Positions 41,921 through 60,583 of a stretch of DNA of 64,000 bases are shown piece after piece. The DNA is from Octopus sinensis (Eukaryota): positions 69,130,001 to 69,194,000 of the forward strand of contig NC_043007.1 in NCBI RefSeq assembly GCF_006345805.1. The letters are read 5' to 3'. The notes under the pieces were generated by a model. That model was not told where the DNA came from. It saw only the letters and a program-made list of their open reading frames with translations, and searched no databases. A program made the translations under genes and the position numbers. How positions within the stretch are numbered: position 1 is the stretch's first letter; each line of letters starts with the position of its first letter.

Positions 41921-43317
41921 GATCTCGAAATGGTAAAAACAAAGTCGAACTTAGCGCCATTTGAATTAAGAATGAAAAAGCCAACAAAATGATTTGTCCG
42001 ATGTGATAATGATTCTGCCAGCTTTCCACTTCGTAATAATAATACCTTTTGACAGAGGCACAGAGTCAGCAATTTTGAGGAGAAGGGATTAGTTGATCCC
42101 ATCGATCCTAATACTTGACTGGTACTTTAGTATATAAACCATGAAAAGATGAAAGGCGAAGTTGATGTCGGCGGGATTTGAACTCAAGCGAAAATAGCCG
42201 GAGGAAATACATTATAATGGCCTCTGAAATAGGCACAAGGATAAAAGCTTTGACGGGAAATGATTATATAAATACACATGCATAAATGTGTGCATGTGTA
42301 TGTGTGTGTGTGTGTGTGTATGTATGTTTGTGTGTATGTATGTATGTGTGTGTGTGTGTGTACGACGGGCGTCTTTCAGTTTCCATCTACCAAATCCACT
42401 CACAGGGTTTTGGCTGGCCTGTGGCTACAGTAGAAGAAAGTTACCCAAGGTGCTACATAAGAGCTGTAAAACATACAAATAATGTTTCCAGGCTAATCCT
42501 CGCAGAATAAGCCTCTGGTCAAAGACGTTGCAGCAGTGACCATCCTGTCCTTTTCCTGGGTACAGAGCATGAGAAATGCAGGACTCTACATTATCAATTG
42601 TGATTTGTTTTGCTAGAAGATCTTTTGATGAAGATTTGGCTGCTCTTTCTAGCAACTTGAATAGACGTGTTGAAGATACTTTGTTCATTATTCTCTGTTA
42701 CATTTTATTGTGTTTTTATAGCCAATGTACTGTCTTGATTGAGTAAAACTTTGATCGAATACTCTCAACCATAACAATCTGTGTTTTATTACAGTATTCA
42801 ATACCCTTAACTATATCATCCAAAGTAGTTTTCGTTAACAAAGACGATAGCTGTGAGTTGAGGAAAATTTGGCTACTGTCTCTAACATAACGCCTGCTAA
42901 TAGGTTCCTCTCTATGTTTTTTGGATTGTTTCTGTGTTCAGATTTCAAAGCTTAGTCTATTAAATAGCCCCAAGTACTTGAAGGTGCATCATAAGATGCA
43001 AGTAAATTTCTGGAATGGATTTTTCAAGGTAGGGCCTCGCAATATTTTGGTGGGGCGTGGATGACTCAAGAATGAGGTGTAACTAAGTAACAAATGAATA
43101 GTACTTACAGAAAAGCTATATTAAATCTCTGAGCGAGATATAAACAGTATCAGTACGGAATCGTAGCATATAATTACCAACCAAGTGTGGCGTCCTATAG
43201 TGAACAATGCTACTGACGTTTATAGCCCCAAGAAGACATCTCCTTCAGCTGGCTAACGACACACATTCTGTGTCCGATTAGTATATATGCGAGGAGAGGT
43301 CTCTAGCCTTACGTGAT

Positions 43318-43364
43318 ACACACGGACTAGACTTTCTGGGTGGTTATCCGTCCTCAGCGTGTGT
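43318..43364 (-). ncRNA. Type I hammerhead ribozyme motif
   Basis: ACACACG CTGAGGA C GGAT-aacc-ACCC A GAAAG-tcta-GTC CGTGTGT. Perfect 7-bp stem I and GUC site, with single mismatches in stems II and III. Confidence 0.75.
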
Positions 43365-43569
43365 TAATCACATGCTAACTGTCCTGTATAGGACGCCACA
43401 CTTGGTTGGCAATTATATGTTATGATTCCGTACTGCTACTATTTATATCTCGCTCAGAGATTTAACATAGCTTATTCCCCCTTTTTCGAGATCAGCGATA
43501 GTTTGTCGCTGGAAAAAGCATATAGAATTTTGCGAGTGGAATGAGTTTTCATCACTAGCATGGGATTAA

Positions 43570-43612
43570 CACAGACTGAGGACGGGTAAACACCCAGAAA
43601 CTCTAGTCTGTG
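43570..43612 (+). ncRNA. Type I hammerhead ribozyme motif (second copy)
   Basis: CTGAGGA C GGGT-aaac-ACCC A GAAAC-tcta-GTC. Core and stems II and III are intact. Stem I is degraded and disrupted by a SINE insertion. Confidence 0.7.
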
Positions 43613-43613
43613 A

Positions 43614-43845
43614 AAGCGGTGAGCTGGCAGAAACGTTAGCACGCCGGGCGAAATGAGTAGCCGTATTTCGTCTGCCGCTACGTTCTGAGTTTAAATTCCG
43701 CCGAGGTCAACTTTGCCTTTCATCCTTTCGGGGTCGATAAATTAAGTACCAGTTACGCACTGGGGTCGATGTAATCGACTTAATCTGTTTGTCTGTCCTT
43801 GTTTGTTCCCTTTGTGTTTAGCCCCTTGTGGGCAATAAAGAAATA
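43614..43845 (+). mobile_element. Family-A SINE inserted into the hammerhead element
   Basis: 18-bp TSD agaaactctagtc(t/c)gtga at 43596-43613 and 43846-43863. Confidence 0.92.
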
Positions 43846-44978
43846 AGAAACTCTAGTCCGTGAGTATCACGTAAGGCTAAAGATGGGAGCGATGGCCTCC
43901 CCTCGCAAATACTAATTGGACACAGGATGTGTGTCGTTAGCCAGTTGGAGTAGATGCTTCCTGGGGCTATAAACCTCTGTAGCACTGTCCTGTATAGGCC
44001 ACCACACTTGGTTGGCAATTATATGTTACTTACAGAAAAATTTTAAATAAAAATACTTTGAAATATACGGTATATGATATAGTTGATGCAATAAAAGAGT
44101 TTCCTTAGAATCGGTTGTGGTTAAGCGTATGTATGCATTCGGAACATCTTTGCGAGGCTCCAAACAGCCATAATTGCGCGTTGGAAGTTTAATACAAAAC
44201 GTGTTTATCCTCAATTTCGCTACATTTGCTCTGTAGCTTGTAACTGGTAATACTCCTCAGGATAGTAGTTAATTCATAACTATATAGAAACCTGACTGGA
44301 TTATGAAAACCTACGTGAAGCTATAAATATAACAGTAGCAGTCGCACATCTACTCATACATGTAATTCCTGGTACACTCACACACACTCACACAGAGAAA
44401 CACACACACAGAAACACACACACACATATATACATATATACTGCGTTATATATATACTAGACTACCCGTAACCCGTTGGGTCACTGACGGTTCAGTTTAT
44501 ATAACATTGAAGCTGATTTCAACATTGCATTAAAATGATAGTTAATTTTATGATTCAGTTAAACGTTTCAATTCGTTCATGTCATCATAGGTCTGGTTTA
44601 GAAGTTCAGGTTTTAAGATTTTATTAATTAATTACAGCATTTAATAGAAATAGAACTTTCAGGATAAACTTGAACTCCAATAAAAGCATTTATTTATGGC
44701 ATATGTGCACACTTGTGCAAAAATGCAAAAGGAATTGTTATATAACGTAATCATTTAATTAATAGAGACAATTTTCATTTCTGGGTTATGTTACTTTTGG
44801 AGTATTTTCCCATTATGCATCGTTTTGGCTACTTATGAAGGTACCTATAAAAACCACGTATCTCGAGAACATCAATACATTCGAGAATGAATAAGAAACA
44901 TGGAGGGTTGTCTTGGAGTGTGCTAGAAATAACTGCCAAATCTCCATCAAGTCACTTTTTCCTCTGAAAACATTTACA

Positions 44979-57865: not shown

Positions 57866-59135
57866 TAATAATAATAACAATAATAACAACAACAACAACA
57901 TTATTATTATTATTACTATTATAATAACAATGATAATGGTTTCAAAATGCCACAAAGGCAGCAATTTCGGGGTAGGGGATGAGTCGATGACATCGACCCC
58001 AGTGTTCAACTAGAACTTATTTTATTGACCCCGAAACAATGAAAGGGAAAGTCGACCTCGGCGAAATTTGAACTCAGAACATAGCGACAGGCGAAATACG
58101 GCTTAGCATTTTGCCCGGCGTGATAACGAATCTACCAGCTCGCCGCCTTAATAATGAAAATATTATTGTTAATAATATTATTAATAACAATAATCTTTTC
58201 TGCTATAGACACATATCCTGAAATTTTGGAGGAGTGGGGTTATCGATTACATCGACCCCAGTGCCCAACTGATCATTTTTTTCAAATCAACCTAAAGGGA
58301 AGGAGAGGCAAAATCGACGTCGGTGGAATTTGCACTTAGAACATAATGAGCCTGAAGAAATGCCGCTAAGCATTTTGTCCGAGGTGCTAACGATTCTGTC
58401 AACTCACCACCTTAATTATTGTTTCTACTATAATCACAAGGCTGGCAATTTTTGAAGGAGGAAGAAAGTGGATCACATCGACCTCAATACCTAACTGCTA
58501 CTTAATTTTATCAACTCCGAAAGGTTAAAAGATAAAGGTGATTTTAGCAGGATTTAAACTCAGCACTTAAGGTACTGGAACAATACCGCAAAGCATTAGT
58601 TCTGACTTGCTAATGATTTTCCTAGTTTGTTGCCTTCAAACCAACAATATTCTTGCTTGACTTGTACTTATTTTATCGACACCGAAAGAATGAAAAGTAA
58701 AGTCGGCCGCAGCACGTAACCTGGCGGAAGAAATGCTGCTAAACATTTTGTCCGGTGCTTTAAATTTTGAGCGAATGGGTTTTAGTCGATTCCATCGTCA
58801 ACTCTTCTTCACTTGTACCCTAATTTATCGAACGTACCCTAATTTATCGAGCCCCAGAAGGATGAAACTCAAAGTTGACCTCGACGTACATAAAATATCG
58901 ATTACTTAATTCTGAGAATTTTAATTTAATATTTTTTCGTCCTATGCTTTATATTGCACGTTAATTATTTTTTTCTGCTCCTTGGAGTAAACGGAACAGG
59001 AAGAAATGGAAACAAAGATGTTATTCTGCTTCCGTATCACTGGTTTCAAATTTTGGCTCAAGGCCAGCAATTTCGGGATACGTCAATTCCAGTACTCAGC
59101 TGGTACTCATTTTATCGATCGTGAAAGGATGAATT
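57588..59135 (-). repeat. Cluster of minus-strand family-A SINE copies
   Basis: At least six successive degenerate copies in the same orientation, separated by (TAA)n or (TTA)n. Confidence 0.8.
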
Positions 59136-59175
59136 TCTATTTCCGTACTATAAAGTGAAAAATTATATTCATAGT

Positions 59176-59591
59176 GCAGTTGTATACTGTCAACTTAAAG
59201 TGACAGTCCCATAAAGGGAATCACCCCACCGCTATTTAGCCCTAGGAGGCATCGACGCTTCCTGTCGGCCTTGACACATTTCCTGTGTCCTTATGTTTAC
59301 AAGGGAGAGACAAGCACCCCATCCAGCTAAGCCTGCATCCAGAGACATGTTTCTGAGTCTTGTTCGTCATCAGTCTGGAGTAGCATGGCTTGCTAGCTGC
59401 AGATGTTTGTCTAGACATTGCAAACGTATATAATTTCAGTGAAGGCCGACAGGAAGCGTTGATGCTTCCTAGGGCTAAATAGTGGTGTGATTCCCTTTAC
59501 GGCACTGTCACGTTAAGTTGACAGTATACAACTGCTCAATCGCTCCACCGCTGCTTATATCTCTCTGAGATATTTAGAAATTTAATATTTC
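59176..59591. mobile_element. Hammerhead-bearing fold-back element
   Basis: Inverted arms 59176-59272 and 59442-59535. 12-bp TSD tatattcatagt at 59164-59175 and 59592-59603. Confidence 0.85.
59338..59379 (-). ncRNA. Minimal type I hammerhead ribozyme motif
   Basis: TCCAGA CTGATGA C GA-acaagac-TC A GAAAC AT GTC TCTGGA. 6-bp stem I, intact core, GUC site, palindromic ACATGT stem III, weak stem II. Confidence 0.75.
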
Positions 59592-60583
59592 TATATTCAT
59601 AGTATTATGGAAACCTGAAAAATGTATGAAATACGTAAACCGCCATTTTGTAAAGGAATATTTCAAAACAGTTTTGGATGCTGACAAGCTTCCATTATTC
59701 CGAGTTAACTCATTTGGACGATTTCAGTTTTGCGAACACTGTAAAAATGGATCTAATTACAAAGCGATTAAAGCATCCGCTTCGCAAGCATGCAGTCTTG
59801 AGTTCAGTTCTACTGCAAAGTACTTTGTACAGCTACCTTCTACCAAAATTTCGTGCTAGTTAATAACTTTTGAGCAATATTTATTGGACTGTAATTGCGT
59901 AGAAACCCATCGCATGTATATACGTGTGTGTGTGTGTGTGTGCGCGCGCGCTGGTGTGTTTGGTTACAACGAAAGCATCTACAATTCAACTCAGAAAAAA
60001 GTATCACAGAAGAATTCGTGGACGTTCAAGCCTGATGGTTAGGCTCGCATGACATATGCGTATGAACTTACATGAGACAAAGGACTGCACACTGTCTCAA
60101 AGTTAGCACGCACAAACTCATTTCACACAGCTTCGTGGAAAATTTGCTCTGGCGTTGGAGTCGACGACCATAAGTTATATGGCGTAGACTAAAAAGAAAG
60201 AAGAGTTCAAATTCTGTTGAGGTCGACCTTACTTTTCATTCCTTTCGGGGTCGATAAAATAATTACCAGAGGAGAACAGGAGTAGATGCAATCGACTGTC
60301 CGGCTTCCCTAAAATAACTGGCCTTGAGCGAAAATTTGAGTCAATTATTGATCATCTAGTTAATGATTTTAACCAATTAACAACTCGACTGTTTGATTAA
60401 TAGTACGATCAGTTAATCAATTATGTGCGTTAGAGTCCTTTCAACATCATTTGGTCCTCATCATTAACACAATATCTCTACTCCACGAATGTTCCAGTTC
60501 TGTTTCCAGACAGCTTATTATTTGAATGACTGAACGGTTTATCAAAGAATCGATTAACTAATTTGGTTAAATGGTTGACTAGT

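What the first reader, a model, noticed from the sequence alone, without database searches (positions are those of the whole stretch)
59164..59603. Diverged sister fold-back element keeps the hammerhead structure with fully swapped stems
Seen: a 12-bp TSD, inverted arms of about 95 bp with the right side extended, and blocks collinear with the 43-kb element (tagccc.a.ga...catc; gacaca...ctgtgtcc; ttatatctc.ct.aga). Stem I is TCCAGA/TCTGGA here and ACACACG/CGTGTGT there. Stem III is ACATGT here and ACTCTAGT there. The catalytic core is retained in both, and the inversion breakpoint differs between them. Inference: the compensatory change indicates selection on ribozyme function. Variable asymmetric arms plus long TSDs fit reverse transcription with fold-back priming better than cut-and-paste. 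The palindromic stem III suggests cleavage as a dimer.
Basis: partly seen in the sequence, partly recalled or inferred. Interest (0 to 1): 0.72.

Follow-up and report, generated by a model that had tools for sequence, protein, structure and literature searches.

The report
Penelope-type hammerhead retroelement, inverted insertion
This is a worn copy of a very abundant, protein-free jumping element that carries a hammerhead-ribozyme motif of the kind found in Penelope-like retrotransposons and was likely pasted in by a borrowed Penelope-type enzyme copying RNA from both cut DNA strands; elements of this kind are already described in other animals.

Summary
A 12-bp direct repeat (59164-59175, 59592-59603) flanks an element with ~100-nt inverted arms, a 54-nt extension on the right only, and a hammerhead-like motif on the minus strand (59380-59337).

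The 43-kb element belongs to a homologous sister family. Its stems differ by paired changes and its core is kept.

Each family has thousands of first-look candidates in this 2.7-Gb animal genome. The basic unit is a ~355-nt ORF-less repeat, also found in tandem, not a fold-back.

The inverted arms are an insertion product. Two copies lie head to head with both 3' ends outward, one ending at a fixed site and the other 54 nt further on (a "tail").

One-sided tails, 5' truncation, tandem and inverted copies, ends in microsatellites, 10-14-bp duplications and palindromic stem III are the published signatures of Penelope-like elements (PLEs) and of animal retrozymes.

Not shown:
- Cleavage was not tested.
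- Rfam's hammerhead models do not match.
- No autonomous partner was found.

"Fold-back priming" is not the best fit, and "fully swapped stems" overstates the differences.

Verdict: a new member of a known kind. Earlier notes of this scan report similar ribozyme repeats on other DNA of this genome.

The parts
59164..59175 (.). Left copy of the 12-bp target-site duplication, TATATTCATAGT
   Evidence: Exact direct repeat D4. It abuts the first base shared with family copies.
59176..59443 (-). Left copy, lying antisense in the window. Read on the minus strand it runs hammerhead region, AC-rich hairpin, arm. Its 3' end lies at 59176 ('site 1', no tail). Its 5' end is truncated at about 59443.
   Evidence: Matches family query 1-268 at 90-94% in 20+ loci. 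Profile positions 56-330.
59176..59275 (.). Left inverted arm (A)
   Evidence: Inverted repeats I1 and I2. 92.8% identity to the right arm over 97 nt.
59273..59289 (-). Small conserved hairpin block, GACACA..TGTGTC, kept in all three sister families. It lies about 55-70 nt downstream of the predicted cleavage site in ribozyme sense.
   Evidence: Sequence. Conserved columns in the three-family comparison. Highest summed contig depth in the element.
59337..59380 (-). Hammerhead-like motif, type I, PLE minimal style.
- Stem I: 59379-59374 with 59343-59338.
- Core CUGAUGA: 59373-59367.
- Extra C: 59366.
- Stem II and loop: 59365-59355 (2 bp in this copy, 3 bp in the family).
- Extra A: 59354.
- GAAA: 59353-59350.
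- Palindrome ACAUGU: 59350-59345.
- C17: 59344. The predicted cut is between 59344 and 59343.
   Evidence: The covariance model built from family 43 matches here full length, at 18.8 bits and E 0.0044. Cleavage was not tested.
59439..59537 (+). Right inverted arm (A'). This is the 3' part of a second copy in sense orientation, 5'-truncated at about 59444.
59538..59591 (+). 54-nt 'tail' (E), present on the right side only. It ends at 'site 2'.
   Evidence: Optional in family copies. 18 of 46 3'-type ends lie at the tail end and 18 of 46 at site 1. See also the alignments.
59592..59603 (.). Right copy of the 12-bp target-site duplication
43115..44026 (.). Sister-family (family 43) composite insertion. 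Inverted copies have outer ends at the tail end (left) and at site 1 (right). It is flanked by a 13-bp duplication, TACTTACAGAAAA (43102-43114 and 44027-44039). A nested unrelated repeat interrupts it at about 43615-43845.
43318..43364 (-). Family-43 hammerhead-like motif: ACACACG / CTGAGGA / C GGAT AACC ACCC A / GAAA / GTCTAG / T C / CGTGTGT
   Evidence: Covariance model hit of 64.8 bits.
43569..43613 (+). Second family-43 hammerhead-like motif, on the opposite strand. The nested insertion cuts its 3' stem I strand.
   Evidence: Covariance model hit of 55.1 bits.

Best explanation
Window 59176-59591 is one decayed insertion of a high-copy, ORF-less repeat family that carries a hammerhead-like motif of the minimal type found in Penelope-like elements (PLEs). 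It was likely inserted by target-primed reverse transcription from both nicked DNA strands, by a PLE reverse transcriptase/GIY-YIG endonuclease supplied in trans.

Shown directly:
- The family unit is about 355 nt. In ribozyme sense it reads 5' T-run, long imperfect hairpin with the hammerhead motif at its tip, small AC-rich hairpin, arm A', optional 54-nt tail E, 3'.
- Copies occur singly with variable 5' ends, in tandem, and head to head.
- 3' ends fall on two fixed positions 54 nt apart.
- Insertions are flanked by duplications of about 10-14 bp and often sit in dinucleotide microsatellites.
- At least two sister families share the plan with different, still-pairing stems. These are family 43, present at 43 kb in this window, and a younger 'v43'.

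Inferred:
- A staggered double nick 12 bp apart gave two 3'-OH primers.
- One primed cDNA at site 1 (the left copy, 268 nt). The other primed at site 2, the tail end (the right copy, 153 nt).
- The two cDNAs were joined in the middle. This left inverted arms, a tail on one side only, and the 12-bp duplication.

Predicted, untested:
- In multimeric or paired transcripts, two motifs would pair through the palindromic stem III (ACAUGU here).
- They would cut after C17, between 59344 and 59343 on the minus strand, probably weakly or with protein help.
- This window copy has a weakened stem II and is most likely a dead copy.
For: Copy number and unit:
- 3500 first-look candidates for family 59 and 2436 for family 43, with 40 scored each.
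- Unit layout and tandem arrays.

Ends:
- In family 59, 36 of 46 3'-type ends lie in two 5-10-nt windows: 18 at profile positions 0-4 and 18 at 50-59.
- In family 43, 25 of 54 lie at 0-19 and 15 of 54 at 60-79.
- 16 of 30 (family 59) and 19 of 36 (family 43) composites are inverted.
- 12 of 16 and 13 of 19 of those carry the tail on one side only.
- Composites with both 5'-type ends outward number 0 of 30 and 1 of 36.

Target-site duplications:
- Found in 14 of 31 family-59 composites, against 9.8% in flank-swapped controls. Non-microsatellite cases are 11-15 nt as scored.
- The window has 12 bp at the 59-kb element and 13 bp at the 43-kb element.

Microsatellites at an end: 13 of 31 against about 7% expected, and 17 of 36 against about 13% expected.

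Motif:
- Core CTGATGA in 30 of 32 rows and CTGAGGA in 30 of 51 rows.
- C17 in 32 of 32 and 50 of 51.
- Perfect stem III palindromes in 26 of 32 and 30 of 51.

Structure:
- A model built from family 43 alone finds family-59 motifs full length.
- 85.2% of cells are paired against 74.6% in shuffles (0 of 500 reach it). The covariation score is 0.329 against 0.163 (0 of 500). 8 of 12 pairs show changes on both sides. Slid controls reach at most 60.6% paired.
- The dimer fold forms a 6-8-bp intermolecular stem III and is more stable than two monomers: -22.6 against -19.2 kcal/mol for family 59, and -41.5 against -28.6 for family 43.

PLEs in the genome: 5029 first-look GIY-YIG candidates and ORFs up to 883 aa with RVT_1 plus a C-terminal GIY-YIG domain.

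Literature:
- PLE insertions show 5' truncation, partial tandems, an adjacent inverted 5'-truncated copy, a 30-40-bp tail often at one end only, and a microsatellite bias (PMC8557442, passages seen).
- A PLE enzyme nicks and extends both strands in vitro and starts reverse transcription at two adjacent internal sites that define the tail (PMC11167929, main text read).
- PLE minimal hammerheads have an extra base after A9, a G10.1-C11.1 pair, a palindromic stem III, families full of covariation, and pairs on opposite strands 100-700 bp apart (PMC4209133, parts 1-2 read).
Against: - No autonomous PLE sharing sequence with these families was found. I looked at 30 GIY-YIG loci with 1.5-kb flanks and 8 longer PLE loci. 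tblastn of 5 PLE ORFs against 72 repeat loci gave only one neighbour, in opposite orientation about 900 nt away. The link to PLE enzymes therefore rests on insertion anatomy and on papers.
- Rfam's hammerhead models give no match at E up to 10, even on intact family copies.
- The motif departs from the canonical core. It has an extra base on both sides of helix II, and helix II in family 59 is only 3 bp.
- A competing pairing of CUGA with UCAG is predicted.
- Cleavage and expression are untested. Only assembled contigs were on hand, and they cannot show RNA ends.
- The tail is 54-60 nt here, against 30-40 bp in the papers.
- Family-43 duplications were barely above control: 5 of 36 against 9.1%.
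- The loci were picked by likeness to the window's own inverted copies, so the share of inverted forms is inflated.
- 6 of 14 5'-type ends in family 59 coincide at the unit boundary, which simple random 5' truncation does not explain.
Confidence: 0.75

Rival explanations
1. A single cDNA made on the element's RNA folds back on itself and primes its own second strand. This gives a hairpin-like inverted duplication that is then integrated.
For: - The unit has strong internal inverted repeats where a strand could snap back. One is a long imperfect hairpin around the motif, -56.4 kcal/mol for 140 nt. Another is ACTGTCA..TGACAGT at the arm tip, where the inversion junction of L023 lies.
- Junctions differ between copies.
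- Papers leave open that endonuclease resolution of an intermediate makes the tail (PMC8557442, passage seen).
Against: - Snap-back copying should carry the second arm to the same terminus as the first. Instead, 12 of 16 and 13 of 19 inverted composites have one end at site 1 and the other at the tail end, a fixed offset of 54-60 nt.
- Both-strand priming with two start sites has been shown in vitro for a PLE (PMC11167929).
Confidence: 0.12
2. A non-autonomous cut-and-paste DNA transposon (MITE or fold-back type). Its ~100-bp terminal inverted repeats would be bound by a transposase that makes a fixed target duplication. The hammerhead-like motif would be incidental.
For: - Inverted terminal arms and a flanking duplication of about 12 bp.
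- Recalled, not tested here: Mutator-like elements have long inverted ends and 9-11-bp duplications.
Against: - 14 of 30 family-59 composites have a single orientation and only one arm.
- Tandem arrays exist.
- The inner junction varies.
- The ends are unequal by a 54-nt tail.
- Duplication length varies from 10 to 14 bp.
- No transposase ORF was seen in 72 loci, although only PLE ORFs were searched for.
Confidence: 0.03
3. A SINE-like element on the opposite strand, mobilised by a LINE. The sense strand would be the one ending in CTGATCAC followed by an A-run. The hammerhead-like motif would then be antisense and without function.
For: - The unit ends in a short A-run on that strand, up to about 15 A in L027.
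- Duplications of 10-14 bp also suit LINE-type insertion (recalled).
Against: - The A-run side is the variable end. Only 6 of 14 single-orientation composites reach it. The opposite ends are sharply fixed in 36 of 46 cases.
- Inverted composites never put the A-run outward: 0 of 30, and 1 of 36 in family 43.
- The motif's stems covary between families, which an antisense passenger would not need.
Confidence: 0.03
4. The element is PLE-mobilised as described above, but the hammerhead-like motif no longer cleaves. It would persist as a structured RNA signal, for example for protein binding or template recognition.
For: - The core departs from canon, with extra bases on both sides of helix II and a 3-bp helix II.
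- Rfam does not match.
- PLE minimal hammerheads cleave poorly in vitro (PMC4209133).
- Ribozyme mutants did not affect insertion in vitro, and no reads ended at the cut site in anole RNA data (PMC11167929).
- Insertion ends here do not coincide with the predicted cut site.
Against: - The 11 core bases, C17 and the palindromic stem III are exactly what catalysis as a dimer needs. They are kept across three families while the stems change.
- A PLE hammerhead did cleave when its protein was present (PMC11167929).
Confidence: 0.25

Closest known systems
Minimal type I hammerhead motifs of metazoan Penelope-like elements (Cervera and De la Pena 2014, PMC4209133; parts 1-2 of the text read)
   Same: - Type I layout.
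- CUGANGA..GAAA core.
- An extra base between A9 and 10.1.
- A G10.1-C11.1 pair in families 59 and 43.
- A stem III made of A15.1-U16.1 around a palindromic loop.
- Thousands of dispersed copies in consensus families that differ by compensatory changes.
- Pairs on opposite strands a few hundred bases apart.
   Different: - An additional unpaired A (U in v43) between helix II and G12.
- Helix II of only 3-4 bp, against the 6-8 bp reported for schistosome and Drosophila PLE motifs.
- v43 has A-U at 10.1-11.1.
- No copy was found inside the flanking repeat of a coding PLE.
Metazoan non-LTR retrozymes (Cervera and de la Pena 2020, PMC7229834, passages seen; Li, Clavereau and Pollet 2026 preprint 10.64898/2026.07.22.740005, abstract and outline seen)
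   Same: - ORF-less units within the 170-400-nt range, each with a type I hammerhead motif.
- Low G+C.
- Tandem copies.
- Duplications longer than 4 bp.
- Coexistence with PLEs, the proposed mobilisers.
- A highly self-paired RNA.
   Different: - Retrozymes are described mainly as tandem arrays with canonical hammerheads that yield circular RNAs.
- Here most sampled copies are single or inverted, and the motif is of the minimal PLE style.
- Neither circular RNA nor expression could be tested.
PLE insertion architecture and the 'tail' (Craig et al. 2021, PMC8557442, passages seen; Frangieh et al. 2024, PMC11167929, main text read)
   Same: - 5' truncation and partial tandems.
- An adjacent inverted 5'-truncated copy that forms inverted repeats.
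- An extension present at one end only.
- Microsatellite and AT-rich targets.
- Two defined reverse-transcription start sites downstream of the hammerhead.
   Different: - The tail is 54-60 nt rather than 30-40.
- The element is non-coding.
- The enzyme is not identified.
Twin priming of human L1, which gives 5' inversions
   Same: Two primers from the two sides of a staggered break, with cDNAs joined internally to give an inverted 5' part.
   Different: In L1 the second primer anneals inside the RNA at variable places, and the inverted part does not end at a defined start site. Here both outer ends are defined 3' ends.

Membership tests
Hammerhead ribozyme (type I) | Conserved core CUGANGA ... 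GAAA, with H17 (not G) before the cut and A15.1-U16.1 | tested here: met
   Window copy. Family rows: core intact in 30 of 32 and 30 of 51, C17 in 32 of 32 and 50 of 51, A-U pair in 73 of 76 cells. Extra unpaired bases flank helix II.
Hammerhead ribozyme (type I) | Match to a curated Rfam hammerhead covariance model | tested here: not met
   No hammerhead family at the gathering score. None at E up to 10 on the two window elements or on five loci with intact copies.
Hammerhead ribozyme (type I) | Helices I and II supported by covariation | tested here: met
   8 of 12 pairs show changes on both sides. 85.2% of cells are paired against 74.6% in shuffles, and slid controls are far lower. Caveats: the alignment was fitted to the model, and the changes trace to about one family split.
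Hammerhead ribozyme (type I) | Site-specific self-cleavage | not testable with these tools
   Only contigs of public runs were on hand, and they cannot show RNA ends.
PLE minimal hammerhead (Cervera and De la Pena 2014) | A base between positions 9 and 10.1 | tested here: met
   C in 23 and T in 9 of 32 rows. C in 35, T in 11, G in 3 and A in 2 of 51 rows.
PLE minimal hammerhead (Cervera and De la Pena 2014) | G10.1-C11.1 pair | tested here: inconclusive
   Met in families 59 and 43: GC in 63 of 76 cells at that pair. Sister family v43 has A-U there.
PLE minimal hammerhead (Cervera and De la Pena 2014) | Palindromic 15.2-16.2 / loop 3, allowing a dimer | tested here: met
   ACATGT in 14 rows, ACTAGT in 10, ACTCGAGT in 29. 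Perfect palindromes in 26 of 32 and 30 of 51 rows. The dimer fold forms the intermolecular helix.
PLE minimal hammerhead (Cervera and De la Pena 2014) | Location in the flanking repeat (pLTR) of an RT/GIY-YIG element | tested here: not met
   None of 72 repeat loci holds PLE coding sequence as part of the element. None of 38 PLE loci holds these families as its flank. The sample is small next to thousands of copies.
Penelope-like-element insertion signature | 5' truncation, partial tandems, an adjacent inverted 5'-truncated copy, a tail at one end, a microsatellite bias | tested here: met
   The counts are given in the For line.
Metazoan non-LTR retrozyme | Tandem ORF-less repeats of about 170-400 nt, each with a type I hammerhead | tested here: met
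   Tandem units in L027 and L055, with within-array identity of 95.6% and 98.1%. v43 pairs lie 352-353 nt apart on one strand. Most sampled copies are not tandem.
Metazoan non-LTR retrozyme | Expression as linear and circular RNA cut at the ribozyme site | not testable with these tools
   No raw RNA reads were available.
Cut-and-paste TIR transposon / MITE | Equal terminal inverted repeats at both ends of every copy and a duplication of fixed length | tested here: not met
   The ends differ by the tail. 14 of 30 composites have one arm only. Duplications range from 10 to 14 bp.

The most novel reading that the evidence does not exclude
These families are a natural record of how Penelope enzymes work in vivo. 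Inverted insertions that carry the tail on exactly one side would be footprints of both target strands priming at two different RT start sites. That behaviour has so far been shown only in vitro, for one lizard element. One inverted composite with a shared inner junction seems to have become a master copy able to present a valid 3' end on either strand. The ribozyme would be an undescribed minimal variant, with unpaired bases on both sides of a 3-4-bp helix II, that curated models miss.
Probability: 0.3. Interest if true: 0.5.

Novelty: new member of a known kind. Interest (0 to 1): 0.3.

Why it matters
- It adds two or three large ribozyme-bearing, non-coding retroelement families from a 2.7-Gb invertebrate-type genome to the PLE/retrozyme class.
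- It offers thousands of insertions whose ends can be read as a record of PLE priming: two start sites, both strands, and microsatellite targets.
- It shows that curated hammerhead models miss this style of motif, so genome annotation will under-count such ribozymes.
- It does not change what is known about how these elements work.

Tried and rejected
- **A conserved wobble pair flanking helix II.** I asked whether the two extra bases (C..A) form a conserved pair, with G..U in L094 as covariation. Rejected. Among 287 v43 matches the commonest listed form has U..U, and others have A..U or G..U. In families 59 and 43 the C-to-T changes sit in a CpG.
- **Autonomous partner.** None was found. The family-43-type copy beside the 775-aa PLE ORF in L094 is about 900 nt away, in opposite orientation, and bounded by microsatellites. 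I read it as a chance neighbour.
- **RNA evidence.** No RNA holder was listed. All runs offered were contigs, some only guessed to be RNA, and no begin or end places were reported.
- **Empty site in related organisms.** Contigs of organisms C and D run from the tail into the right flank (59568-59911 and 59562-59911, with 2-3 differences). The insertion is therefore present there, and no empty site was seen.
- **Alignments.** A MAFFT alignment of both families' motifs (A1) misplaced the 3' half and was not used. The model-fitted alignment A3 was used instead.
- **Strict descriptor.** It finds none of the window's three motifs, because each is a decayed copy.
- **Errors and misses.** One search failed on my own minus-strand coordinate error, corrected. 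The Lunse et al. paper on dimeric PLE hammerheads is not held and is cited only through a review (PMC6765202, passages seen).
- **Earlier findings.** Look-ups by place near the window and by sequence gave nothing.
Full report
**1. What is at the coordinates**

The + strand reads TATATTCATAGT at 59164-59175 and again, exactly, at 59592-59603. Between these lie:
- a left arm at 59176-59275;
- a right arm at 59439-59537. The two arm pairs are 90% and 92% complementary, and 92.8% identical over 97 nt by my own alignment;
- a further 54 nt at 59538-59591 on the right side only.

On the minus strand, 59380-59337 reads C TCCAGA CTGATGA C GAACAAGACTC A GAAA CATG T C TCTGGA T. In hammerhead terms this is:
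- a 6-bp stem I;
- the CUGANGA box;
- a short stem II;
- GAAA;
- A15.1-U16.1 around a CAUG loop, so that ACAUGU is a palindrome;
- C17.

**2. More than chance**

- A relaxed descriptor finds exactly this site in the window. The mean over 200 dinucleotide shuffles is 0.005 hits.
- The strict descriptor found none of the window's motifs and nothing in 200 shuffles.
- On family loci the strict descriptor gives 18 hits in 99,908 bases and 10 hits in 97,656 bases. In 157,706 bases of PLE loci it gives 1 hit, which is itself a family-43-type copy.
- The duplication abuts the first and last bases that other copies share.

**3. It is a repeat family, and the unit is not a fold-back**

The window lies in a genome of 2.72 Gb. 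The element gave 3500 first-look candidates, of which 40 were scored, yielding 118 matches. The 43-kb element gave 2436 candidates, 40 scored, and 146 matches.

Mapping the query onto the 30 fetched loci and aligning 17 of them shows the commonest form. In the window's + orientation it is: reverse complement of the 54-nt extension, arm A, an internal part with the motif antisense, then CTGATCAC and a short A-run. That makes about 355 nt.

Tandem units occur in L027 and L055. Within-array identity is 95.6% and 98.1%. Identity between loci is 78-95%.

In ribozyme sense the unit reads: 5' T-run, long imperfect hairpin with the motif at its tip (140 nt, -56.4 kcal/mol), small GACACA/UGUGUC hairpin, arm A', optional extension E, 3'.

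**4. The sister family**

A profile of 7 family-59 units matches family-43 copies in the same orientation over profile positions 4-263. The best between-family E-value is 7.8e-17. Thirty GIY-YIG control loci (97.7 kb) gave one hit, L087, which is a family-43-like copy.

Majority lines of the two families are identical at 162 of 304 aligned positions.

A third, younger relative (v43) has 287 matches within 3 mismatches of a 38-nt pattern. The reversed control pattern has 0.

**5. The motif across copies**

These counts are on the model-fitted alignment of 84 matches, with the duplicate L001 row dropped. One row in the family-59 group is the window's 43569-43613 copy, misfiled by my sorting rule.

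| Feature | Family 59 (32 rows) | Family 43 (51 rows) |
|---|---|---|
| Core | CTGATGA in 30 | CTGAGGA in 30 |
| Base after the core | C in 23, T in 9 | C in 35, T in 11, G in 3, A in 2 |
| Stem II | GAG/CTC 3 bp, fully paired in 25 | GGGT/ACCC 4 bp, fully paired in 31 |
| Stem III string | ACATGT 14, ACTAGT 10 | ACTCGAGT 29 |
| Perfect palindromes | 26 | 30 |
| C17 | 32 | 50 |

The window copy's stem II is weakened by a private change at 59363. Nearly all family contigs read C there.

A covariance model built from 14 family-43-type motifs (13 family-43 copies plus L094) finds the family-59 motifs end to end. E-values run from 2e-7 to 0.02 in 311,556 bases, and the window copy scores 18.8 bits.

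Counting pairs on that alignment:
- 85.2% of cells are paired, against 74.6% in shuffles (0 of 500 reach it).
- 126 cells have changes on both sides, against 52.6 in shuffles (0 of 500).
- The covariation score is 0.329 against 0.163 (0 of 500).
- 8 of 12 pairs have double changes, but 92 of 500 shuffles reach that number.
- Slid partners give at most 60.6% paired.

Between the families, four stem I pairs and one stem II pair are exchanged, and two stem I pairs are the same. The alignment was fitted to the structure, and the changes trace to about one split. This is therefore support, not proof.

Folding two copies together gives a 6-8-bp intermolecular stem III. The dimer is more stable than two monomers: -22.6 against -19.2 kcal/mol, and -41.5 against -28.6. 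The same folds show a competing CUGA/UCAG pairing.

**6. How the insertions are built**

I merged profile hits into composites and left out one of each pair of overlapping loci (L028, L040). For each outer end I then asked whether it is a 3' end or a 5' end in ribozyme sense.

- Family 59: of 46 3'-type ends, 18 lie at profile positions 0-4 (the end of the extension, 'site 2') and 18 at 50-59 (the end of the arm, 'site 1').
- Family 59: of 14 5'-type ends, 6 lie at the unit boundary and 8 elsewhere.
- Family 59: 16 of 30 composites have 3'-type ends on both sides, and none has 5'-type ends on both sides.
- Family 59: in 12 of those 16, one end is at site 2 and the other near site 1.
- Family 43: 25 of 54 3'-type ends lie at 0-19 and 15 of 54 at 60-79. 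19 of 36 composites are inverted, and 13 of those 19 are one-sided.
- The window's two elements follow this rule: 56 and 2 for the 59-kb element, and tail end on the left with site 1 on the right for the 43-kb composite.

Target-site duplications:
- Direct repeats at the ends were found in 14 of 31 family-59 composites, against 9.8% when flanks were swapped.
- Setting aside those inside microsatellites, the scored lengths are 11-15 nt with at most one mismatch. By eye they are 10-14 nt.
- Family 43 gave 5 of 36 against 9.1%, which is not convincing. The window's composite does have a 13-bp duplication.

A dinucleotide microsatellite lies within 40 nt of an end in 13 of 31 composites (about 7% expected) and in 17 of 36 (about 13% expected).

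Inner junctions differ between copies. One junction is shared by about seven copies at different loci (L004, L005, L007, L010, L012, L014, L016), which also share subfamily substitutions.

The loci were chosen by likeness to the window's inverted copies, so the share of inverted forms is not a genome-wide figure.

**7. Mechanism**

These features match the published description of PLE insertions point by point:
- high 5' truncation;
- partial tandems;
- an inverted 5'-truncated copy next to the unit, which forms inverted repeats;
- a short extension often at one end only;
- a microsatellite bias (PMC8557442, passages seen).

For one PLE the enzyme was shown in vitro to cut and extend both target strands. 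It starts reverse transcription at two adjacent internal sites downstream of the hammerhead, and the stretch between them is the 'tail' (PMC11167929, main text read).

I therefore read the window element as follows:
- a staggered break 12 bp apart;
- one strand priming at site 1, which made the left, antisense copy of 268 nt;
- the other strand priming at site 2, which made the right, sense copy of 153 nt including the tail;
- an internal join of the two cDNAs.

This reading is inferred.

The genome holds many PLEs. There are 5029 first-look GIY-YIG candidates and ORFs of 762-883 aa. [quoted passage not shown] I found none that shares sequence with these families.

The ribozyme's role is predicted only. 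The insertion ends do not coincide with the cut site, which agrees with the in vitro finding that cleavage is not needed for insertion (PMC11167929).

**8. Rivals**

- *Snap-back self-priming.* This should give arms that end at the same place. The fixed 54-60-nt offset argues against it, although junctions at natural hairpins (L023) show that strand switching happens.
- *Cut-and-paste transposon.* This is contradicted by one-armed copies, tandem arrays, unequal ends and variable duplications.
- *LINE-mobilised SINE on the other strand.* This is contradicted because the A-run side is the variable end and never faces outward in inverted copies.
- *An inactive motif kept for another reason.* This stays open.

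**9. Comparison with what is known, and novelty**

The motif meets three of the four sequence features given for PLE minimal hammerheads: the extra base after A9, the palindromic stem III, and families with covariation. The fourth, G10.1-C11.1, is met in two of the three families (PMC4209133).

It differs in three ways:
- a second unpaired base before G12;
- a very short helix II;
- no match to any Rfam hammerhead model at E up to 10, even for intact copies.

The unit size, tandem copies and lack of ORFs fit animal non-LTR retrozymes, for which PLEs are the proposed mobilisers (PMC7229834, passages seen; preprint 10.64898/2026.07.22.740005, abstract seen).

A full-text search for hammerhead, retrozyme and octopus found three papers and listed two; going by their titles and the starts of their abstracts alone, neither is about such families. 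This does not show that the families are absent from repeat libraries, which I could not consult.

Earlier notes of this scan report other hammerhead-bearing, PLE-type repeats on other DNA of this genome.

I rate this a new member of a known kind. Its interest lies mainly in being a large natural data set on PLE priming.

Noticed in passing
window 43615-43845; also 59050-59140: An unrelated short repeat is nested inside the 43-kb composite, where it cuts one hammerhead-like motif. A related fragment lies just upstream of the 59-kb element. It has by far the highest summed contig depth of the stretch in all runs laid.
   Followed up: no
L054:295-342 and L054:570-617: Another hammerhead-like motif family, with two identical motifs 275 nt apart on one strand and a GTAC palindromic loop 3. 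It looks like a separate tandem retrozyme-like repeat.
   Followed up: no
L049:2565-2609 (minus strand): A further hammerhead-like motif with stem I GCACTT/AAGTGC and a TCGA palindromic loop 3, but poor stem II pairing (14.6 bits).
   Followed up: no
L096:84 and L096:6019; ORFs at L096:674-2110 and L096:2032-4374: A coding PLE with two overlapping ORFs (479 aa with no Pfam match, and 781 aa; the 781-aa ORF of sister locus L091 has RVT_1 plus GIY-YIG). It is flanked by identical CTGACGA..GAAA motifs 5935 nt apart, probably its own flanking-repeat ribozymes.
   Followed up: partly
L004, L005, L007, L010, L012, L014, L016 (about 1700-1800 in each): About seven inverted composites at different genomic places share one inner junction (..GTAAACATA|AGGACACAGG..) and subfamily substitutions. 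The tail lies on the left in L010 and on the right in the others. The inverted form may itself have been copied.
   Followed up: partly
L087:179-225; v43 copies listed: Stem III variants that stay self-complementary. ACCCGGGT occurs in L087. ACTCGGGT occurs in many v43 copies, and would self-pair with two G-U wobbles.
   Followed up: no
window 59373-59370 with 59357-59354 (minus strand), and the same places in family copies: The core's CUGA can pair with the UCAG that spans the 3' side of helix II and the extra A. The minimum-energy folds prefer this pairing, so it may be an inactive alternative conformer.
   Followed up: no
L042:63-154: A 5S rRNA match above Rfam's gathering score (45.2 against 38 bits) lies next to a family-43 array. 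It could be a 5S gene or a 5S-derived repeat.
   Followed up: no
family-59 unit boundary (profile positions 340-357): 6 of 14 5'-type ends coincide at the T-run that follows the tail of the previous unit in arrays. Random 5' truncation does not explain this. It may mark the RNA's 5' end, or insertion next to an existing tail.
   Followed up: no
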